Shown: positions 1 through 64,000 of the stretch, one piece after another
Layout of the letters: the number at the start of each line of letters is the position of its first letter
How positions within the stretch are numbered: position 1 is the stretch's first letter
From: Chondromyces sp.
GTDB taxonomy: Bacteria > Acidobacteriota > Thermoanaerobaculia > Thermoanaerobaculales > Sulfomarinibacteraceae
Reading direction: 5' to 3'
Assembly: GCA_035466375.1 (NCBI GenBank)
Contig: DATIVB010000056.1
Location: forward strand, 10,075-74,074
DNA length: 64,000 nt
Made by a program: the position numbers and the translations under genes
Notes under the pieces: model-generated
The model's database searches: none
What the model saw: only the letters and a program-made list of their open reading frames with translations
Told to the model about the DNA's origin: nothing

Positions 1-73
1 AATCCGAAATCCGAAATGGGCGGGCGGGCGGCATTCCGAATTCCTAATTCCGAATTCCGAATTTCGAATTTCC
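1..73. repeat. Window-truncated modular simple-repeat element. It has AATCCGA x2 (1-17), the G-tract GGGCGGGCGGGCGG (18-31), then six ATTCCGA/ATTCCTA/ATTTCGA-type 7-mers (32-73).
   Basis: Read directly from the sequence. It has the same architecture (short AT-richer tandem units plus a G3N1 tract) as the elements at 1646-1893 and 62993-63867. Confidence 0.8.
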
Positions 74-78
74 CCCGT

Positions 79-87
79 CTGCTATCC
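79..87 (+). promoter_or_regulatory. Extended -10-like motif TGCTATCCT upstream of guaA
   Basis: TGn + TATCCT lies 20 nt upstream of the guaA ATG (107), immediately after the repeat element. No convincing -35 was seen. Confidence 0.3.
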
Positions 88-106
88 TCCGCCGCGGGGA
101 GCACTG

Positions 107-1645: not shown

Positions 1646-1693
1646 GAATTCAGAATGAGGAATGAGGAATGAGGAATGCCTCCCACCCCCGCC
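1646..1693. repeat. Left arm of a modular inverted-repeat element: GAATGAGG-type 8-mers x3-4, then the C-tract CCTCCCACCCCCGCC
   Basis: Tandem gaatgaggaatgaggaatgaggaatg followed by cctcccacccccgcc. It is an imperfect reverse complement of 1831-1877. Confidence 0.8.
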
Positions 1694-1830
1694 AGGGAGT
1701 CCAGGTTCGTCGGATCGGATGTTCTTATCCGGCTCGATGCGCCTCGAGGACGTAGACCAGAGCCCACCGTCTCTTGCGACACGTTGAACGGTTCTGTCTG
1801 CGAAAGTTGCGGACCACATGCACGTCCTCC

Positions 1831-1893
1831 GGGGGGAAGGTCGGGATTTCCTAATTCCTCATTCCTCATTCCTAACTCGGTCCGGGTGGGTGG
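1831..1893. repeat. Right arm of the modular inverted-repeat element. It has a G-tract (GGGGGGAAGGTCGGG), CCTCATT/CCTAATT-type repeats, then GGGTGGGTGG.
   Basis: atttcctaattcctcattcctcattcctaact is the complement type of the left-arm repeats. It is flanked by G-runs and abuts the TAGAAT box. Confidence 0.8.
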
Positions 1894-1899
1894 TAGAAT
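1891..1899 (+). promoter_or_regulatory. Extended -10 promoter motif TGGTAGAAT
   Basis: TGn + TAGAAT lies 86 nt upstream of the ATG at 1985. The same TGnTAGAAT is seen at 63898-63906, and a TAGAAT hexamer occurs on the minus strand at 15792-15797. Confidence 0.4.
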
Positions 1900-3313: not shown

Positions 3314-4192
3314 ATGGCGACCGCGTCGTCCCGCTGGGTGTCGGTGGTGCTGTGGGTGGCGGCGTTCGCCGTCACCGTCATGCTGGCCGTGTTCCAGCGG
3401 ATGACCGGCCCGAGCTACCCCCTGCGAGGAGTGCTGCAACTGGCCGACAGCAGCGAGATACGTTACCGGCTGCCGCGCTCCAGCCAGGGCCGGGACTCCC
3501 TCGTGATCTCGGTGCCGAGGCTGCCGGGGACCGACGCCGCGGTCCTCGAGTGGCGCCGCTATCCCACCGACGAGCCGTATCGGCGCCTGCCCATGTTCGG
3601 AACGGAGGACGGCAGCTTTCGAGCCGAGATCCCACGCCAACCCGCGGCCGGCAAGGTCGAGTACGTCGTGCGGCTCGCGGGCGCAGGCCACGAGCGAGTG
3701 CTGCCCGCGGGCGAGCCGGTGGTGGCGCGCTTCCGCGACCCGGTGCCGGCGGCCGTCCTGGTGCCGCACATCATCCTGATCTTCGGGAGCATGCTGGTCT
3801 CGACGCGCGCCCTGCTCGAGGTCCTCAGGCGAGGTGCGCCCACAGCGAGGGGGCTCGTCCTCGTCGCCATGGGGCTGCTGATCTTCGGCGGCCTGGTGCT
3901 CGGGCCCGTGGTGCAGAAGTTCGCCTTCGGCGCCTACTGGACCGGCTGGCCGCTGGGCACCGACCTCACCGACAACAAGACCCTGTGGGCCTTTCTCGCC
4001 TGGCTTCCGGCGACGGTCGTGGCGCTGAGCGGCCGGCGCACGCGGTGGGCGGTCGTGGTCGGCTGGGTGGTGATGATGGGCGTGTTCCTGATCCCACACA
4101 GCCTCCGCGGCTCCGAGCTCGACTGGTCGCAGCCATCGGCGGTCGGCGAGGCCGCCGGAGAGGGCGGCGCAGGAGACGTGACTCCGCAGTGA
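3314..4192 (+). CDS. Hypothetical integral membrane protein (N-terminal anchor, extracytoplasmic domain, C-terminal multi-TM region)
   Basis: 292-aa ORF 6 nt after the previous stop. Hydrophobic segments include VVLWVAAFAVTVMLAV, VLVPHIILIFGSMLV, LVLVAMGLLIFGGLVLG and VVGWVVMMGVFLI. No family was recognised. Confidence 0.7.
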   Translation: MATASSRWVSVVLWVAAFAVTVMLAVFQRMTGPSYPLRGVLQLADSSEIRYRLPRSSQGRDSLVISVPRLPGTDAAVLEWRRYPTDEPYRRLPMFGTEDGSFRAEIPRQPAAGKVEYVVRLAGAGHERVLPAGEPVVARFRDPVPAAVLVPHIILIFGSMLVSTRALLEVLRRGAPTARGLVLVAMGLLIFGGLVLGPVVQKFAFGAYWTGWPLGTDLTDNKTLWAFLAWLPATVVALSGRRTRWAVVVGWVVMMGVFLIPHSLRGSELDWSQPSAVGEAAGEGGAGDVTPQ

Positions 4193-4205: not shown

Positions 4206-4670
4206 GTGGGGGCGGAACTGCAGGCGGTTCAGCGAGATCAGCGCTTCCTTCTGGTTCGGGCCGGGGGCGTGTGCTACGGGATCGCCGCCGAACAGGTGCG
4301 GCACCTGGTGCGCGGCCTGACCTGTCACCCTCTGCCCGGCTCGAACCCGCGGCTGCTCGGCCTGGCACAATTCGGAGGCGAGCCGCTGGCGGTGCTCGAC
4401 CTCCACGCGCTCGCGGAAGGCGGGCCGGCGCTCAGCGGCCAGTGGGTGACCGTCATTCTCGGCCGCGGCGACCGCGACTCGTGGTCGGCGATCGGCCTCG
4501 CCGTCGACGAGGCCCTGCGGGTGGAGGTCCTCGACCGCCAGCCGTCGGGCGGACGGGGCCGCCGTCTGGTCGAGGGCGTGGTCGAGCTCGGCGACTGCGC
4601 GGTCAAGGTGCTGGACACGTCGCTGCTGCTGGCGGACGGACGGCAGGGCGGAGGAGGGGACGATGACTGA
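4206..4670 (+). CDS. cheW: CheW-like chemotaxis coupling protein
   Basis: GTG start. FLLVRAGGVCYGIAAEQVRHLV...LLGLAQFGGEPLAVLDLHAL is the typical CheW-domain pattern. It overlaps the MCP start by 8 nt. Confidence 0.85.
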   Translation: MGAELQAVQRDQRFLLVRAGGVCYGIAAEQVRHLVRGLTCHPLPGSNPRLLGLAQFGGEPLAVLDLHALAEGGPALSGQWVTVILGRGDRDSWSAIGLAVDEALRVEVLDRQPSGGRGRRLVEGVVELGDCAVKVLDTSLLLADGRQGGGGDDD

Positions 4671-15747: not shown

Positions 15748-15791
15748 GGCCCCGGTCCCCGGTTGCTGTCAGCCGTTGCACGCATCCTGGA

Positions 15792-15797
15792 ATTCTA
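15792..15797 (-). promoter_or_regulatory. TAGAAT -10-like hexamer upstream of lptFG
   Basis: The minus strand reads cccgtgTAGAATtcc about 45 nt upstream of the lptFG ATG (15747). The same hexamer occurs in the other putative promoters in this window. No clear -35 was seen. Confidence 0.3.
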
Positions 15798-15854
15798 CAC
15801 GGGTTTGCTGGCCGGGCGGCACCGTCGGGCGGCGCGGAAACCTCGGTGGGCGCG

Positions 15855-15892
15855 GTTTCCACAAGATTTCCACAAGCGGTCGAAACTCCACA
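15855..15892 (+). promoter_or_regulatory. Cluster of three co-oriented DnaA-box-like 9-mers
   Basis: The three 9-mers are GTTTCCACA (15855-15863), ATTTCCACA (15866-15874) and AACTCCACA (15884-15892). The first two are each 8/9 matches to TTWTNCACA and form an 11-bp-spaced direct repeat TTTCCACAAG. Confidence 0.4.
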
Positions 15893-15900
15893 CCCGTGGC

Positions 15901-15953
15901 CGATATTTCAATGTCCGATAAGATATATTATGTAAACCTGAATATCTGATGAC
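15901..15953. other. Local AT-rich tract (candidate DNA-unwinding element or UP-like region)
   Basis: The stretch cgatatttcaatgtccgataagatatattatgtaaacctgaatatctgat has 36 of its first 50 nt as A/T by direct count. This contrasts strongly with the GC-rich surroundings. Confidence 0.5.
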
Positions 15954-16016
15954 GCCCTCGAACAGGCCGAAAACCCCTCGCGGCGATCTTGAACGACGGA
16001 ATTCCCTGCCCCTCAC

Positions 16017-16958
16017 TCAGTTCGCGGCGTCGCTCTCGCCACCACCCTCGATCTCGGCTTCGATCTCGCGGATCATGGCGCGCAGGGCTTCAATGACCTG
16101 CTGCGGCTCGGGCTCGGACTCGGTTCGGAAGGCCAACGACACCGAGACCGTGCGATCGGAGCTGCGGAACTGGAAACGGAATGGCTTGCGGCCCGGGACC
16201 GCGTCGTCGGCCGGTGAACCTCCAGCCTCGGATTCTTCGAGCTCGTGCCGGCGGTCGCGCAGAGCCGCGCGATCGAGCCGCAGCTCGATGATCTCACGCA
16301 CCAGCTGTTCCATCGCAGCCTCGTCGGGCGCACGGGCGATCTCCAGGAGCACGCTCTTGGCGGTGATGTCGGCATGCCGACACAGATCCCGGATGGATGG
16401 CGGGATGCGGAGGGTCTGCAGGCTCTCGGTGACCGTGACCCGGGAGCGCCCAACCGCCTGCGCCACCTGCTCGTGGGTGTAGCTGTACTTGTCGATGAGG
16501 GTGCGGTAGCCCTCGCCCTCCTCGAACGGCGTCAGGTCCTTGCGTTGGAGGTTCTCGATCAGCGCGATCTCGAGCGCCTGCTGGTCGGTGACGGTGAGCT
16601 CGATGCACGGGACCTCGGTGAGGCCCACGGCCATGGCCGCGTGGAACCGGCGCTCGCCGGAGACCAGCTCGTAGTTGCCCTCGCCGAGAGGACGCACCAG
16701 GAGCGGCTCGAGAATGCCATGGGCGTCGATGGACGACTCGAGGTCGTCGAGGTCGCCGAGGTTCGAACGCGGCTGGTCCTGGTTGCTGGTAATGGCGGTG
16801 ATGCGGACCATCCGGCCGATGCCCTCGCCCATTCGTTGCGTGAGCTCGTCGACGAAGTGTCGATCGTGGCGCATGCGCCGGTGGGACGGCAGGCCGGCCT
16901 TGGGTTTAGTCGGACCCGACACGCTGCAGGACCTCCTCACAGAGACGGTAGTACTCAT
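16017..16958 (-). CDS. parB: ParB/Spo0J chromosome partitioning protein
   Basis: Motifs are ILEPLLVRPL..YELVSGERRFHAA (ParB box), an HTH (YTHEQVAQAVGRSRVTVTESL) and a C-terminal dimerisation region. The start is uncertain: the ORF maximum overlaps parA, and the GTG at 16922 or ATG at 16874 are alternatives. Confidence 0.9.
   Translation of the reverse strand: MSTTVSVRRSCSVSGPTKPKAGLPSHRRMRHDRHFVDELTQRMGEGIGRMVRITAITSNQDQPRSNLGDLDDLESSIDAHGILEPLLVRPLGEGNYELVSGERRFHAAMAVGLTEVPCIELTVTDQQALEIALIENLQRKDLTPFEEGEGYRTLIDKYSYTHEQVAQAVGRSRVTVTESLQTLRIPPSIRDLCRHADITAKSVLLEIARAPDEAAMEQLVREIIELRLDRAALRDRRHELEESEAGGSPADDAVPGRKPFRFQFRSSDRTVSVSLAFRTESEPEPQQVIEALRAMIREIEAEIEGGGESDAAN
16367..16382. repeat. 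Perfect 16-bp palindrome TGTCGGCATGCCGACA inside the parB coding sequence
   Basis: Read directly. It is identical to the core of the palindrome at 13251-13268. Confidence 0.7.
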
Positions 16959-56849: not shown

Positions 56850-56927
56850 CTACTCCCTGGAATACTGGCACGCGCCTTGCTTATTGTCCGGGTGCCGGGC
56901 ACACGACGATCCGGTACACGACATCAT
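56850..56927 (-). CDS. Possible 25-codon ORF (MMSCTGSSCARHPDNKQGACQYSRE) behind a 16-nt polypurine SD. Speculative.
   Basis: Manual reverse-complement translation. AGGAGGAAGGAGGAGG lies immediately upstream of tandem ATGs (56927, 56924). Third-position GC is lower than in neighbouring genes. It is entirely antisense to the candidate sRNA. Confidence 0.3.
   Translation of the reverse strand: MMSCTGSSCARHPDNKQGACQYSRE
56866..56881 (+). promoter_or_regulatory. Sigma-54 (-24/-12) promoter: cTGGCACGcgccTTGCT
   Basis: It matches YTGGCACG-N4-TTGCW with the GG and GC elements at the canonical spacing. It is located in the bEBP-murB intergenic gap on the strand opposite to both genes. Confidence 0.7.
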
Positions 56928-56969
56928 ACCTCCTCCTTCCTCCTGCGGGCTTTCGGGCCCGCCTTTTTT
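56892..56969 (+). ncRNA. Candidate sigma-54-dependent small RNA (~78 nt) with a CU-rich single-stranded tract
   Basis: It is bounded by the sigma-54 promoter (predicted +1 near 56892) and an intrinsic terminator. It contains a 5' hairpin (56894-56915) and ACCUCCUCCUUCCUCCU (56928-44). There is no plausible plus-strand ORF before the terminator. Confidence 0.55.
56945..56969 (+). terminator. Rho-independent terminator (GCGGGC-UUUCGG-GCCCGC followed by C-UUUUUU)
   Basis: A 6-bp all-GC stem and 6-nt loop are followed by a T6 run. The T-run is on the plus strand only. Confidence 0.7.
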
Positions 56970-57051
56970 ATGGGGATCCGGATGGGGCGTCGTCCACGGA
57001 CCGGGAGGTTCTCGCGCACTCGACGTCGGCGACCGATTCGAAAGCTCCGCC

Positions 57052-62198: not shown

Positions 62199-62977
62199 GG
62201 CCCGGCCCCGACCGGTTCCAGCGGTACGTGGCCGTCGATCTCGAGCGGCAGTGGTTCGAATTCCGTGCCGACCAGGTTCATCTCCCCCGCCGCACCAACG
62301 ACCAGGCTGGTCCGGGTCTCGAGCCACGCCGGCATCACCAGGGCCATGCGCTCGCCGCGCCTGCACATCCACGGCGAGTGGAAGTGACCCCACAGCAGCA
62401 CGTCCACCCCGTCCGCCCAGGCCCTTTCGGCGCTGCGCTCGAGGTCCTGAACCGGCTTCATGGATCGGAAGCGTTGGTTCGTCTTGGCCAGATGACTCTC
62501 CATGTGGCGGACGATGGCCACCGCCAGGCCGCGCGGTAAGAGCCTGGCCCACAGGCGGGCGACGCCGGACTTCGAGACCGTCGACCAGAATCGGTACGCC
62601 AGGTCCCTGCGGTTGACGAGATCGCCGTGGACCAGCAGAAAGTGCCTGCCGCCGGAAGAAAAGCTCCTGCTGCGTCCGCTCCAGTCGAGCTCGGCTGCGA
62701 GCTCGGGCTCGTCGAGGAAGAAGTCGCGGTTGCCCTCCACCACGCCGATCTGAACGCCCTGCGTCCGCAGCTCCCGCCACACGACCAGCACCTCATACAC
62801 CGACGAGGTCCAGAACTTCGACATGCCGATCAGGTACTGGAAGGCGTCGCCGAGGTAGATGATCTCGCCGATGCCGCGCCGGGCGGCGAGCCGGAGATGG
62901 GCGTTCATGGCGGCCGCGTCGTCGTCCCCTTGGCCGACGTGCGAGTCTGCGATGATGAGACGTTGCACGCCGGCCAT
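62195..62977 (-). CDS. Calcineurin-like metallophosphoesterase (LpxH-like UDP-2,3-diacylglucosamine hydrolase family)
   Basis: ATG at 62977 (MAGVQRLIIADSHVG). Motifs are YLGDAFQYL, VEGNRDFF, LVHGDL and WGHFH. The upstream part of the 306-aa ORF lies in repeat sequence. Confidence 0.75.
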   Translation of the reverse strand: MAGVQRLIIADSHVGQGDDDAAAMNAHLRLAARRGIGEIIYLGDAFQYLIGMSKFWTSSVYEVLVVWRELRTQGVQIGVVEGNRDFFLDEPELAAELDWSGRSRSFSSGGRHFLLVHGDLVNRRDLAYRFWSTVSKSGVARLWARLLPRGLAVAIVRHMESHLAKTNQRFRSMKPVQDLERSAERAWADGVDVLLWGHFHSPWMCRRGERMALVMPAWLETRTSLVVGAAGEMNLVGTEFEPLPLEIDGHVPLEPVGAGP

Positions 62978-62992
62978 GGTAGCGCACGCCAG

Positions 62993-63219
62993 AACGTCGT
63001 GACACGTTCGAACGTTCAAACGTTGCACGTTCCGCCCACCCACCCAAAACCACAGAGGCACAGAGGGCACAGAGGGAACACAGAGCCGCCCACCCACCCA
63101 GAACCACGAAGACACCAGGTCACGAAGAAATCACGAAGGCCGCCCGCCCGCCCCAAAACGCAAAGGCGCAGAGGCGCAAAGCCCGACCAGCCCTCCACCC
63201 ACGCAAAGACGCTGCAGCG
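62993..63219. repeat. Left arm of a large modular inverted-repeat element. It has four to five blocks of 7-8-bp tandem repeats (ACGTTC-, CACAGAGG-, CACGAAG-, GCGCAAAG/GCGCAGAG-type) separated by C-tracts (CCGCCCACCCACCC and similar).
   Basis: Read directly. The C-tracts are at 63032-63045, 63086-63099, 63140-63154 and 63182-63200. The blocks are imperfect reverse complements, in mirrored order, of those at 63591-63849. Confidence 0.85.
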
Positions 63220-63590
63220 AGCCACGAGAGTTCAGCGGTGTGACGAGGTTTCCGGCCGTCGGACGGCCGGAAACCGCCGGGACGGGACTCCGTGTCGAAC
63301 CCGAGCGTTCGCCCCGGAGTCCCGCCCAGACGGCCCGCGCTCTCGAAGAGCGCAGGCCTCGCCAGTTGTCATCTTCAATCACGAGGATGGAGATGGGACC
63401 TTCTCTACCATTGACAGTGGGAAGGGCGAGAGGCAGAACCGCCGTGCCCCGGGCCCGGCGGCCGGTGAGAAGCGCGGCGACGACGAACGCTCGCGTTCGG
63501 AGCTCGCCGCGCTTATCACCGGCGGCAGGCGATCCGATCGCCTGCCGTTCTGCCGCCACACTGCGGAAGAGCGCCCCTCCCGGCACCAGT
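63220..63590. other. Hairpin-rich core between the two arms (possible structured RNA or DNA element)
   Basis: There is a perfect 12-bp stem GGTTTCCGGCCG/CGGCCGGAAACC (63247-63275). A 9-bp stem GGGACTCCG/CGGAGTCCC has a nested GAAC/GTTC stem (63284-63323). Further stems are GCGCTC/GAGCGC (63337-63353), CGAACGC/GCGTTCG (63484-63499) and the 11-bp GGCAGGCGATC/GATCGCCTGCC (63524-63546). Confidence 0.5.
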
Positions 63591-63867
63591 CCCTTTGCGT
63601 CTTTGCATCTTTGCGCCTTTGCGTCTTCTCGTTTTCGGGTGGGCGGGTGGCCTTCGTGAATCCTTTGTGACTTGGTGCCTTCGTGTTTCTGGGTGGGTGG
63701 GCGGCTCTGCGACTCTGCGCCTCTGCGCCTCTGCGTTTCCGGGTGGGTGGGGGGCCTTCGTGATTTCTTCGTGTCTTCGTGCCTTCGTGGTTGCGACGTG
63801 GGCGGATGGGTGGGAACGTGCAACGTTCGAACGTTCGAACGTTCCAACGATGGCGGGCGGGCGGGTG
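63591..63867. repeat. Right arm of the large modular inverted-repeat element. It has CTTTGCG-, CTTCGTG-, CTCTGCG-, CTTCGTG- and AACGTTCG-type tandem repeats separated by five G3N1 tracts.
   Basis: The G-tracts are GGGTGGGCGGGTGG (63637-50), GGGTGGGTGGGCGG (63691-704), GGGTGGGTGGGGGG (63741-54), GGGCGGATGGGTGGG (63800-14) and GGCGGGCGGGCGGGTG (63852-67). Their starts are spaced 50-59 bp apart. Confidence 0.85.
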
Positions 63868-63897
63868 CTCCCTGCTCCCCGGTTCGACGCTTCGGCT

Positions 63898-63906
63898 TGC
63901 TAGAAT
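63898..63906 (+). promoter_or_regulatory. Extended -10 promoter motif TGCTAGAAT
   Basis: TGn + TAGAAT lies 52 nt upstream of the ATG at 63958. It is the same motif as at 1891-1899 and lies directly downstream of the repeat element. Confidence 0.4.
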
Positions 63907-63957
63907 CCCGAAACCGGCGGCGCCGATCGCCGTACGAGTGCCAGGGAGGAAGCCGCA

Positions 63958-64000
63958 ATGAACGCACGTTTCTCGATTGTCATTCTTGCTGCCCTGCTCG
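63958..64000 (+). CDS. 5' end of a gene encoding a probable secreted or membrane protein (truncated by the window)
   Basis: The ATG is preceded by GGGAGGAAG. MNARFSIVILAALL looks like a signal peptide. Only 14 codons are visible. Confidence 0.5.
   Translation, partial: MNARFSIVILAALL

What the first reader, a model, noticed from the sequence alone, without database searches (positions are those of the whole stretch)
62993..63867. ~875-bp modular inverted-repeat element built from different 7-8-bp tandem repeats interleaved with C-tracts (left) and G-tracts (right)
Seen in sequence: the 980-bp gap between the LpxH-like gene and the next plus-strand gene is almost entirely occupied by this element.
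- Left arm (62993-63219) has the blocks ACGTTCGAACGTTCAAACGTTGCACGTTCC, CACAGAGGCACAGAGGGCACAGAGGGAACACAGAG, CACGAAGACACCAGGTCACGAAGAAATCACGAAGG and CGCAAAGGCGCAGAGGCGCAAAG. Each is followed by a CCGCCCACCCACCC-type tract.
- Right arm (63591-63867) carries the complementary block types in mirrored order: CTTTGCG x4, CTTCGTG-type, CTCTGCG x4, CTTCGTG x4 and AACGTTCG x3. Each is followed by GGGTGGGTGGG-type tracts.
- The arms match at roughly the 80 percent level by eye and flank a 370-bp hairpin-rich core.

This is not a CRISPR array, has no transposase, and is not simple microsatellite slippage. The unit sequence changes from block to block while the block/spacer grammar is kept. I do not recognise it as any described repeat family (REP/BIME, ERIC, MITE types).

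Inference: it is a new class of structured intergenic element, possibly able to form a cruciform and G4/i-motif structures, or a platform for a nucleoid or transcription factor.
Basis: partly seen in the sequence, partly recalled or inferred. Interest (0 to 1): 0.72.

Follow-up and report, generated by a model that had tools for sequence, protein, structure and literature searches.

The report
Modular foldback repeat between operons
The 875-bp element is real and belongs to a previously unrecognised family of palindromic, Lego-like intergenic repeats found in many Acidobacteriota, which sit at operon boundaries where relatives have ordinary terminator hairpins; what they do is still inferred, not shown.

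Summary
Window 62993-63867 is a giant imperfect palindrome. Its arms are arrays of modules: a block of 3-5 tandem 7-9-mers next to a G3-Y-G3-Y-G3-N-G2 tract, which reads as a C-tract on the left arm.

It is not a one-off. Two more copies of the same grammar lie at window 1-70 and 1653-1899. About 20 further contigs from Acidobacteriota MAGs (Thermoanaerobaculia, Holophagae and others) and from metagenomes also carry it, partly with the same unit vocabulary.

- The 370-bp "core" is itself an old inverted duplication of a 130-nt three-hairpin domain.
- A contig from another organism, L132, holds a homologous core plus arms in an unrelated gene context.
- The 87%-identical ortholog locus L241 has the same element with modules swapped in and out at the G-tracts. 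Its alignable parts are more conserved than synonymous sites.
- More distant orthologs have a minimal foldback, a foldback with a different unit, or a plain terminator hairpin at the same spot.
- Arms always have the G-strand pointing outward. They lie between gene ends and the next -10 box.

Best reading: a new family of modular foldback repeats acting as operon-boundary elements. The function is inferred. There is no Rfam, plasmid, phage or literature match. Canonical G4 motifs are absent from the arms.

The parts
62966..62981 (-). Probable promoter and start of the LpxH-like gene. The -10-like hexamer TACCAT (62981-62976) overlaps the annotated ATG (62977-62975) and is followed 7 nt later by GTG (62968-62966). 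This suggests a leaderless start.
   Evidence: The string GCGCTACCAT is conserved in orthologs of 63-87% identity: L241, L244, L245, L341, L343 and L344. The same -10 + 7 nt + start layout occurs in L154, L174 and L132. The promoter assignment is inferred.
62993..63219 (-). Gene-proximal (left) arm with 4 modules. Read on the minus strand from core to gene: CTTTGCG x3 | G-tract | CTTCGTG x4 | G-tract | CTCTGTG x4 | G-tract | AACGTTYG x4.
   Evidence: G-tract run structure 3-3-3-2
63237..63367 (.). Left half-core: a three-hairpin domain. It is an inverted, diverged copy of the right half-core.
   Evidence: A covariance model built from the right half hits it in the opposite orientation: 46 bits, E about 1e-6. 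The equivalent hit in L132 scores 69 bits. Alignment. Hairpins are kept through compensatory changes against L132.
63368..63427 (.). Centre of the palindrome. It is less GC-rich and is not conserved between the window and L132.
63428..63558 (.). Right half-core: a closing helix GGCAGAAC/GTTCTGCC encloses three hairpins, forming a four-way junction with no unpaired junction bases.
   Evidence: 10-12 compensatory pairs between the window and L132
63591..63867 (+). Far (right) arm with 5 modules: CTTTGCG x4 | G | CTTCGTG-type x4 | G | CTCTGCG x4 | G | CTTCGTG x4 | G | AACGTTCG x4 | G.
63901..63960 (+). Extended -10-like TGCTAGAAT (hexamer at 63901-63906), RBS GGGAGGAAG (63944-63952) and ATG (63958) of the right-hand gene, which is cut by the window end.
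   Evidence: the promoter assignment is inferred from the consensus only
1..88 (+). Second family member, cut by the window start: AATCCGA x2+ | GGGCGGGCGGGCGG (18-31) | ATTCCGA x5 (33-71), then TGCTATCCT (80-88) upstream of guaA (107-1639).
1653..1899 (.). Third family member, a small foldback between guaA and the next gene. GAATGAG x4 (1653-1678) + CCTCCCACCCCCGCC (1679-1693), then a 150-nt core, then a G-tract + ATTCCTC x4 (1846-1876) + GGGTGGGTGG running directly into TAGAAT (1884-1899).

Best explanation
The element is one copy of a lineage-wide family of modular foldback (palindromic) intergenic repeats of Acidobacteriota.

Anatomy (shown):
- A module is a block of 3-6 tandem 7-9-mers. 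The block is about 33 nt long and relatively G-poor on that strand. It abuts a 14-nt tract G3-Y-G3-Y-G3-N-G2.
- Modules are strung at about 45-55-bp spacing into an arm.
- Two arms face each other, with the G-rich strand always reading outward.
- In this copy the inside of the palindrome is an older inverted duplication of a 130-nt three-hairpin domain around a 60-nt centre.

Evolution and position (shown):
- The family evolves at the DNA level. Whole modules are gained, lost or exchanged at the G-tracts, and arms are duplicated in inverted orientation.
- The elements occupy operon boundaries: between a gene end and the next promoter, or between two divergent or convergent genes.

Mechanism (inferred, not shown):
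- It acts as a boundary or insulator element.
- Any RNA polymerase entering from either side first transcribes a C-rich, G-poor arm. That gives Rho-loading-like C-tracts every ~50 nt.
- The polymerase then transcribes the complement of that arm. The result is a very long RNA duplex that should stop, pause or be cut (RNase III-type substrate).
- The promoter just outside each arm is thereby shielded from read-through and antisense transcription.
- The strict conservation of the G-tract suggests that a protein or a recombination process recognises it.
For: The family is real and wider than this window:
- Three copies lie in the window.
- True members occur in Holophagae, Thermoanaerobaculia and other Acidobacteriota MAGs: L021, L031, L032, L033, L094, L096, L106.
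- Members also occur in metagenome contigs L132, L134, L154, L174, L176, L180, L191, L206, L219, L231, L236.
- In all, 54 modules were found in 21 loci. The period was 7 in 35 modules, 8 in 15 and 9 in 3. The median was 4.5 copies and the median block length 33 nt.
- Units are shared across contigs: CTTTGCG, CTCTGCG, ATCTGTG, ATCSAGC, AATTCCG, AAATCCG.

Dispersal: L132 has a homologous core (73% identity over 323 nt, with compensatory hairpin changes) plus arms, lying between lipA and tmk. That is an unrelated context.

Module turnover with constraint:
- The 87%-identical ortholog L241 has the same core end, the same CTTCGTG block (including its irregularities) and the same AACGTT block.
- L241 lacks the CTCTGTG module and has an ATCTGTG module instead.
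- By my count on the alignment, the alignable non-coding parts are about 91-96% identical, against 78% at 129 four-fold sites of the flanking gene.

Boundary position, at the same serC-like to LpxH-like spacer:
- L343 has a classical hairpin + T-run terminator.
- L344 has a plain hairpin.
- L245 has a minimal AACGTT foldback with a 16-nt loop.
- L341 has a foldback built from a different unit (CCTGMAC).
- The -10-like GCTACCAT is kept in all.

Context and orientation:
- Elements occur in divergent spacers (this one), convergent spacers (L176) and co-directional spacers (L132, L154, L033, window 1653-1899). The G-strand points outward in all of them.
- Arms that face gene ends start within a few nt of the stop codon.
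- Arms that face gene starts are followed by a TANNNT -10-like hexamer before the start codon in 12 of 14 cases read: 8 found by the scan, plus TACCAT overlapping the annotated start in W, L241, L245 and L341.
- The sense strand folds better in 6 of 7 co-directional elements, but the differences are small.
Against: - No transcript, termination or processing data exist. The function is inference from position and structure.
- A mere terminator would not need the tandem-unit blocks or the precise 3-3-3-2 G-tract, so this explanation does not account for the grammar itself.
- No U-run follows the foldbacks, and the terminator scan found none here.
- In the divergent context of this copy there is no upstream gene whose read-through would need stopping.
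- One co-directional element (L154) folds better on the antisense strand.
- Compensatory changes in hairpins can also arise without selection, through quasipalindrome-templated correction.
- The -10 boxes were recognised by consensus only.
Confidence: 0.42

Rival explanations
1. Purely selfish, non-autonomous mobile DNA: a MITE-like or foldback-transposon-like element, or an element related to rRNA intervening sequences. An enzyme encoded elsewhere would mobilise it in trans by recognising the G-tracts or hairpins. Composite elements would arise by nested insertion into the loops of earlier hairpins. It would have no host function.
For: - A homologous core plus arms lies in an unrelated context in another organism.
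- Elements occur in every kind of spacer.
- The same orthologous spacer shows an element, an element with a different unit, or no element.
- The nested palindrome structure extends down to the centre.
- A clearly multi-copy foldback element carrying a PF05635 (23S rRNA IVS protein) gene sits inside or beside the arrays. In L343 it lies between (AACGTTCG)4 arms. It is also seen in L134 and L345. In L347 it fills a spacer that is empty in six relatives.
- rRNA IVS elements are described as selfish foldbacks carrying this ORF (PMC4990558).
Against: - No target-site duplication or conserved element termini were found for the array elements.
- No transposase lies in or near any copy.
- No second copy of the core exists within the 64-kb window.
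- No family members were found in viral contigs, plasmids or phages.
- Module order in the two arms of L132 is not strictly mirrored, which argues against simple nested insertion.
- Aligned parts are more conserved than synonymous sites.
Confidence: 0.25
2. Protein-binding platform. The blocks would be operator arrays for DNA-binding proteins that bind contiguous 7-8-bp repeats cooperatively. From my own knowledge, ribbon-helix-helix proteins do this: MetJ on tandem 8-bp met boxes, and omega of pSM19035 on 7-bp heptads. The G-tract would be bound by a nucleoid-associated or boundary protein. The arrays would set the activity of the adjacent promoters.
For: - Unit length is 7-9 bp and copy number 3-6.
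- GAACGTTC is an 8-bp palindrome repeated in tandem, like a met box.
- Arms end just upstream of -10 boxes. In four cases the G-tract occupies the promoter spacer: window 1884-1899, L134, L174, L094.
- Block sequences, including their irregularities, are conserved between the window and L241 above the neutral level.
- The unit vocabulary is shared between contigs.
Against: - The unit type is not tied to the gene. The same spacer upstream of the LpxH-like gene carries AACGTT units, CCTGMAC units, or no array at all in relatives.
- Many arms face gene 3' ends, where no promoter is expected: L154, L176, window 1653-1693.
- No candidate binding protein was identified.
Confidence: 0.15
3. Non-B DNA switch. 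The G-tracts and C-tracts would form quadruplex or i-motif structures, or the whole element would extrude as a cruciform. This would sense supercoiling or guanine metabolites and modulate transcription or replication.
For: - The tracts are strongly enriched and of strikingly uniform design, with three G3 runs plus one G2 run. From my own knowledge, this is the layout of guanine-vacancy quadruplexes.
- Two of the three arrays in the window flank guaA.
- Foldback potential is enormous.
- Eleven of 74 tracts in other family loci do have four G3 runs.
Against: - No canonical G4 motif exists in either arm of this element.
- In the foldback the G-tract has a perfectly complementary C-tract partner, which competes with quadruplex formation.
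- Nothing here explains the tandem-unit blocks.
- The association with guaA rests on one locus.
Confidence: 0.08
4. The core is a gene for a structured non-coding RNA, and the arms are merely its flanks.
For: - 310 nt are conserved between the window and L132, with 10-12 compensatory base pairs and a closed multi-helix junction.
- The minus strand gains extra G-U pairs.
Against: - The two halves of the core are inverted copies of one another.
- Conservation lies in the stems, not in the loops or junctions. The junction has no unpaired bases.
- No conserved promoter or terminator flanks the core.
- There is no Rfam match.
- Other family members have unrelated cores, tiny cores, or none.
Confidence: 0.05
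5. Assembly artefact: a chimeric or collapsed palindrome.
For: - Short-read assemblies of the same or related organisms break inside the arrays. L001 ends 60 bp upstream of the gene, and L242 and L243 end 39-93 bp upstream.
Against: - Those independent contigs agree with the window as far as they reach.
- L241 reaches into the core.
- L132 is a complete independent homolog.
- The arms are only 86% complementary and differ by a whole module.
Confidence: 0.03

Closest known systems
REP / BIME / REPIN elements of proteobacteria (PMC3733652, PMC3116915)
   Same: Interspersed, strictly intergenic, palindromic, mosaic or modular, often at operon ends. Proposed roles are in termination, mRNA stability and DNA structure.
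   Different: REPs are single 20-40-bp palindromes tagged by GTAG or CGTC and are linked to RAYT transposases. Here the arms are arrays of tandem 7-9-mer blocks separated by G3YG3YG3NG2 tracts, the elements reach about 900 bp, and no RAYT or tag was seen.
Cyanobacterial STRR short tandemly repeated heptanucleotides (own knowledge: Mazel et al. 1990; used for fingerprinting, e.g. PMC5088731)
   Same: Several different 7-nt units, each repeated in tandem a few times, dispersed in intergenic DNA of one lineage.
   Different: As far as I know, STRRs have no constant G-tract separator, no ~50-bp module periodicity and no mirrored multi-module arms. They occur in a different phylum.
BrickBuilt MITE of Porphyromonas gingivalis (PMC4596501)
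   Same: An intergenic bacterial repeat that contains an internal minisatellite, is variable in length, and has promoter activity reported nearby.
   Different: BrickBuilt has one 23-nt unit, leader and tail subunits and small terminal inverted repeats. It does not have alternating unit types, G-tracts or long foldback arms.
23S rRNA intervening sequences with the S23p / PF05635 ORF (PMC4990558)
   Same: Foldback elements with long stems, regarded as selfish. PF05635-carrying foldbacks are nested in or adjacent to the arrays in related contigs (L343, L134, L345, L347).
   Different: The window element carries no ORF and is not in rRNA. Its arms have the block + G-tract grammar, which the PF05635 elements lack: their arms are GCTGNC-rich with GGTTCATCCGGAA termini.
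Drosophila Foldback (FB) transposons (own knowledge)
   Same: Long inverted arms that are themselves built from short tandem repeats. Arm length is variable and the central loop is variable or absent.
   Different: FB elements are eukaryotic, with 10-31-bp units of one family and an associated transposase in some copies. No homology is implied.
Operator arrays of ribbon-helix-helix repressors: MetJ met boxes, omega heptads (own knowledge)
   Same: Contiguous 7-8-bp repeats in 2-10 copies next to promoters. This is a model for how the blocks could be read by proteins.
   Different: Those arrays are gene-specific and single. Here many unit types are concatenated with G-tract separators, mirrored, and also placed at gene 3' ends.

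Membership tests
CRISPR array | Direct repeats of 23-47 nt separated by unique spacers of similar length, usually with cas genes or a leader | tested here: not met
   The constant part is only about 14 nt. The 'spacers' are internal tandem repeats. The arms are inverted copies of each other.
REP / REPIN | A 20-40-bp imperfect palindrome tagged by GTAG or CGTC at one end, in many near-identical copies | tested here: not met
   The arms are 227 and 277 nt arrays of tandem units. There is no second copy of any core hairpin in the 64-kb window. Tags were not searched for systematically.
REP / REPIN | Association with a RAYT (IS200/IS605-like tyrosine transposase) gene in the genome | not testable with these tools
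   Only 64 kb of this genome is available, and no such gene was noticed in it.
MITE | Terminal inverted repeats | tested here: met
   The arms are 85.6% identical in inverted orientation over 202 positions. However, the termini are not conserved between family members.
MITE | Target-site duplication flanking the element | tested here: inconclusive
   No direct repeat was seen at the outer ends here, or at the minimal element of L245, by inspection. No clean empty site was available for this element.
MITE | Multiple closely similar copies and a cognate transposase | tested here: inconclusive
   One homologous copy was found in another organism (L132). There is none elsewhere in the window, and no transposase was identified.
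Intrinsic (Rho-independent) terminator | A GC-rich hairpin immediately followed by a U-run | tested here: not met
   The scan found 0 sites in 62900-64000. The ortholog spacer in L343 does have one.
Canonical G-quadruplex motif | Four runs of at least 3 G separated by loops of 1-7 nt | tested here: not met
   There are 0 motifs in the arms. The tracts have run structure 3-3-3-2 or a permutation of it.
Any Rfam family | A covariance-model match at the gathering score | tested here: not met
   The best hits were 15-25 bits against thresholds of 79-168. There were no hits on seven related loci.
rRNA intervening sequence (IVS) | Inserted in a 23S rRNA helix; foldback stem; often an S23p / PF05635 ORF | tested here: not met
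   The element is intergenic between protein genes and has no ORF with a Pfam match. PF05635 foldbacks occur only in related loci.
Modular foldback repeat family defined here | A block of at least 2.5 tandem 7-9-mers abutting a G3-Y-G3-Y-G2+ tract; at least 1 module per arm; G-strand outward; intergenic | tested here: met
   Nine modules in this element. 54 modules in 21 loci.

The most novel reading that the evidence does not exclude
The modules are a recognised code. A dedicated protein or recombination system of Acidobacteriota would read the invariant G3-G3-G3-G2 tract, as a joint for module exchange and/or as a guanine-vacancy quadruplex. The unit blocks would be interchangeable binding or spacer cassettes. 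Together this would give a new class of bacterial foldback element that builds programmable operon insulators and nests with PF05635 (IVS-type) elements.
Probability: 0.15. Interest if true: 0.85.

Novelty: new variant of a known kind. Interest (0 to 1): 0.62.

Why it matters
Interspersed intergenic repeats such as REP/BIME, STRR and MITEs are known from a few well-studied phyla, and their functions are still debated.

This is a family with an unusually explicit grammar: a constant 14-nt G-tract, interchangeable tandem-unit blocks, and mirrored arms. It occurs in a large, mostly uncultured phylum, and it sits exactly where relatives have terminators.

If the boundary function holds, the family would show how operon insulation is achieved in these high-GC genomes. 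It would also offer a natural set of modular parts.

If instead it is selfish, it is a new bacterial foldback element with a clear evolutionary series (plain hairpin, minimal foldback, 900-bp composite) at one orthologous site.

There is also a practical point. These arrays break short-read assemblies, so they are under-represented in MAGs.

Tried and rejected
- **Rfam.** An E-value-mode scan of the element gave only sub-threshold miRNA-like noise. A gathering-mode scan of seven related loci gave nothing.
- **Sigma-70 promoter and intrinsic-terminator scan.** Nothing was found.
- **Genome-collection pattern scan with two G-tracts.** Most of the 119 hits were G-rich actinobacterial sequence. 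Only the Acidobacteriota hits had the grammar.
- **Metagenome scan with three G-tracts.** Most of the 120 hits were GGGT-type microsatellites. Eleven contigs were true members.
- **Viral-contig scan.** The hits were low-GC phage repeats, not family members.
- **blastn of the element against plasmids and phages.** No match.
- **Looking up the guaA product to extend the window leftwards.** It is not on record.
- **L132 as the orthologous locus.** Rejected. It lacks the LpxH-like gene and instead lies between lipA and tmk.
- **Fixed promoter-element role for the G-tract.** Rejected. Its distance to the -10 box varies from 0 to more than 60 nt.
- **Gene-specific operator role.** Weakened by unit replacement at the orthologous spacer.
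- **Strict nested-insertion model.** Weakened by the non-mirrored module order in L132.
- **Covariance-model search for further copies of the core in 290 kb of related loci.** It found only the window, L132 and their own inverted halves.
- **Literature searches for a prior description.** None found.
Full report
**1. Observation**

The region was read directly.
- Tandem Repeats Finder reports period-8/9 arrays at 63004-63032, 63051-63080, 63159-63181, 63593-63627, 63701-63735, 63766-63789 and 63814-63849. It also reports a 54-bp higher-order period across the left arm.
- Inverted-repeat detection gives arms of 101 nt (87%), 80 nt (86%) and 30 nt (97%).
- A global alignment of the left arm with the reverse complement of the right arm gives 85.6% identity over 202 positions. 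One complete extra module (a CTTCGTG block plus a G-tract) lies on the right.
- GGGYGGGYGGG occurs 8 times in the 64-kb window against 0.97 expected. All 8 are in this element or at window 18-28.
- As single strands, both orientations fold into one giant hairpin: -567 and -580 kcal/mol, z about -20.
- The element fills the 980-bp spacer between a minus-strand metallophosphoesterase/LpxH-like gene and a plus-strand gene that begins at 63958.

**2. It is not unique**

Two more elements with the same grammar are in the window.
- Upstream of guaA: AATCCGA repeats, GGGCGGGCGGGCGG at 18-31, ATTCCGA x5 at 33-71.
- Between guaA and the next gene: GAATGAG x4 plus a C-tract at 1653-1693, a 150-nt core, then a G-tract plus ATTCCTC x4 plus GGGTGGGTGG at 1846-1893.

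A scan of one genome per species for two G-tracts 35-50 nt apart returned mostly G-rich actinobacterial noise. Every hit that also had tandem 7-8-mers came from Acidobacteriota MAGs: Holophagae L021, Thermoanaerobaculia/-ales L031 and L033, and other Acidobacteriota L032, L094, L096, L106.

A metagenome scan for three tracts added L132, L134, L154, L174, L176 (the same as L178), L180, L191, L206, L219, L231 and L236.

Across 21 loci I counted 54 modules.
- The period was 7 in 35 modules, 8 in 15 and 9 in 3.
- The median was 4.5 copies and the median block length 33 nt.
- Block composition was 53% GC, in genomes of 56-73% GC.
- Module spacing was mostly 36-60 bp.
- The commonest tracts were GGGTGGGTGGG, GGGTGGGCGGG and GGGCGGGTGGG.

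Units recur between contigs: NCTTTGCG, NCTCTGCG, ATCTGTG, ATCSAGC, AATTCCG, AAATCCG, AATTCAA, TATAGCCG, CCTGMAC. More distant Acidobacteriota keep the grammar but use other units: TTTCCCG, CCGTCAC, CTTACTC, CTTCGTT, CCGGACC, CTGTCAA.

The organism of the window is an acidobacterium. The best protein relatives that carry a source name are called Acidobacteriota or Thermoanaerobaculales.

**3. Anatomy of the core**

L132 contains a homolog of the whole element. Its core is 73% identical over 323 nt, and the hairpins are preserved through 10-12 compensatory pair changes on either strand.

A covariance model was built from the right half of the core (63428-63558). That half is a four-way junction closed by GGCAGAAC/GTTCTGCC. 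The model also hits the left half (63237-63367) in the opposite orientation, at 46 bits in the window and 69 bits in L132. The four half-cores align with the same three-hairpin layout.

The core is therefore the inner, older part of the same palindrome, arranged around a non-conserved centre of about 60 nt. Conservation lies in the stems, and the junction has no unpaired bases. No conserved promoter or terminator flanks the core, and Rfam has nothing. I therefore rate an independent ncRNA gene as unlikely.

**4. Context and evolution**

L132 lies between lipA (3' end) and tmk (start), not next to an LpxH-like gene. The core plus arms therefore occur in unrelated contexts in two organisms.

At the orthologous locus, found through homologs of the LpxH-like protein, there is a series.
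- **L241 (87% amino-acid identity).** It has the same core end and the same near arm. Its module list is ATCTGTG | CNCTGCG | CTTCGTG | AACGTT, against CTTTGCG | CTTCGTG | CTCTGTG | AACGTT in the window. The indel of the CTCTGTG module is bounded by identical G-tracts.
- **L245 (72%).** It has only a 155-bp spacer holding a minimal foldback: an AACGTT-type block, a C-tract, a 16-nt loop, a G-tract and an AACGTT block.
- **L244 (78%).** It has a degenerate version.
- **L341/L342 (66%).** They have a foldback made of CCTGMAC units.
- **L344 (65%).** It has a plain hairpin.
- **L343 (63%).** It has a classical hairpin + T-run terminator.
- **In all of them** the -10-like GCTACCAT next to the gene start is kept.

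Between the window and L241, four-fold degenerate sites of the flanking gene are 78% identical (129 sites). By my count on the same alignment, the alignable non-coding segments (core hairpins, CTTCGTG block with its irregular 8-11-8-8 spacing, G-tract through the AACGTT block to the start) are about 91-96% identical. The sequence is therefore constrained, or homogenised, while whole modules turn over.

**5. Position relative to transcription units**

The G-rich strand reads outward from the centre in every two-armed element examined: window main, window 1653-1899, L033, L132, L154, L174, L176, L245.

Elements sit in divergent spacers (this one), convergent spacers (L176) and co-directional spacers.

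Arms that face a gene end begin within a few nt of the stop codon. Examples are guaA, L134, L154 and L343.

Arms that face a gene start are followed by a TANNNT hexamer before the start codon in 12 of 14 cases I read. The scan found eight of them. In W, L241, L245 and L341 the TACCAT overlaps the annotated start codon and was read by eye.
- Some are extended -10 boxes: TGCTAGAAT at 63898-63906, TGGTAGAAT at 1891-1899, TGCTATCCT at 80-88.
- Some are -10 + 7 nt + start codon, a leaderless layout: L154, L174, L132 tmk, and TACCAT-GGCCGGC-GTG for the LpxH-like gene.

The distance from the last G-tract to the -10 box varies from 0 to more than 60 nt, so the tract is not a fixed promoter element. 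The arrays thus lie outside the downstream transcription unit, exactly where terminators or insulators lie.

**6. Mechanism**

Three things are shown.
- The anatomy.
- The family and its position.
- The mode of evolution.

The rest is inferred.
- A transcript entering from either side first carries the C-tract strand, which is C-rich and G-poor with a tract every ~50 nt.
- It then carries the complement of that strand, producing a very long duplex.
- I propose a boundary role: Rho loading, polymerase pausing or RNase III cleavage.

The sense strand folds better in 6 of 7 co-directional elements, but the differences are small and one case is contrary.

This model does not explain why the blocks are tandem repeats, or why the tract is so uniform. 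I therefore keep three alternatives open:
- a selfish mobile or foldback element;
- a protein-binding platform (contiguous 7-8-bp repeats are what ribbon-helix-helix repressors bind; own knowledge);
- a non-B-DNA switch.

Canonical quadruplex motifs are absent from the arms. Every tract has three G3 runs and one G2 run.

**7. A lead found on the way**

In L343 an (AACGTTCG)4 foldback with 61-nt arms (82% complementary) carries a PF05635 '23S rRNA intervening-sequence protein' gene.
- A 67%-identical homolog ends L134 just before two modules.
- This protein subfamily is highly multi-copy.
- Its ~800-bp foldback elements have conserved termini. They lie beside arrays or hairpins. In L347 one fills a spacer that is empty in six relatives.
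- rRNA IVS elements with this ORF are described as selfish foldbacks (PMC4990558).
- This shows that spacers in these genomes accumulate nested palindromic elements. It does not show that the array elements are mobilised in the same way.

**8. Comparison with known families, and novelty**

The closest known families are:
- REP/BIME/REPIN (PMC3733652, PMC3116915);
- cyanobacterial STRR heptamer repeats (own knowledge);
- the BrickBuilt minisatellite MITE (PMC4596501);
- rRNA IVS;
- as a structural analogue only, Drosophila Foldback elements.

The defining features of CRISPR, REP, intrinsic terminators, canonical G4 and all Rfam families were tested and not met. MITE features are met only for the inverted arms.

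I found no description of this grammar in the literature searches. Those searches cover open-access papers only.

I class the element as a new variant of a known kind (interspersed palindromic intergenic repeats). Its grammar is unusually explicit and its distribution spans several classes of a phylum.

**Limits**
- Only 64 kb of this genome and about 0.3 Mb of related loci were available.
- Promoters were recognised by consensus only.
- No expression data were available.

Noticed in passing
window 15768-16017: The spacer between an LptF/G-like gene and ParB holds two DnaA-box-like repeats TTTCCACAAG (15856-15876). Next to them is a ~60-nt AT-rich stretch in a 70% GC genome. This is a possible chromosomal replication origin.
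   Followed up: partly
window ~56850-56970 (minus strand): A conserved spacer between the sigma54-activator gene and MurB. It holds an A-run, the hairpin GCGGGCCCGAAAGCCCGC, a very strong GGAGGAAGGAGGAGG site and a 25-codon ORF, MMSCTGSSCARHPDNKQGACQYSRE, with four Cys. It is nearly identical in L241, L244, L245, L341, L343 and L347. It may be a small protein or a leader peptide.
   Followed up: partly
L343 3229-4110; L134 1-260; L345 2800-3640; L346 1-330 and 2800-3580; L347 2700-3490: Multi-copy ~800-bp foldback elements carrying a PF05635 (23S rRNA IVS protein) gene. They have conserved termini (GGTTCATCCGGAA... / ...TTCCGGATGAACC) and GCTGNC-rich arms. They are nested in or next to the heptamer arrays. 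In L347 one is inserted in a spacer that is empty in six relatives. There are 3848 close homologs in the protein database.
   Followed up: partly
window 62966-62981; L154 ~3392-3412; L174 ~172-194; L132 ~4338-4352: A -10-like hexamer followed by exactly 7 nt and then the start codon. This suggests that leaderless mRNAs are common in this lineage. The LpxH-like gene may start at GTG 62968 rather than the annotated ATG 62977.
   Followed up: partly
L032 3700-4000; L094 6475-6756 (rc) and 1900-2165: One Acidobacteria MAG has two copies of a ~300-nt conserved sequence that are 85% identical, and a third, more diverged copy. Each lies directly 5' of a module array. This looks like a single-armed 'half element' with its own conserved head. 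There is no Rfam match.
   Followed up: partly
L001, L242, L243 (contig ends): Short-read assemblies of the same or closely related organisms end 39-93 bp upstream of the LpxH-like gene, inside the AACGTT block. These arrays systematically break assemblies and are probably under-represented in MAGs.
   Followed up: yes
L096 1-285: At least five consecutive 51-bp modules all use the same unit (CCGGACC x4 + GGGTGGGTGGGAG). This is a higher-order tandem array at a contig end, and it shows that modules can amplify in tandem.
   Followed up: no
L080 3780-4050; L097 4700-5000 and 7030-7200: A different repeat family in Thermoanaerobaculia contigs: GTCATCCCGAGCGTAGCGAGGGA...GGGTGGGTGGG hairpins. It matched the G-tract pattern but lacks tandem-unit blocks.
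   Followed up: no
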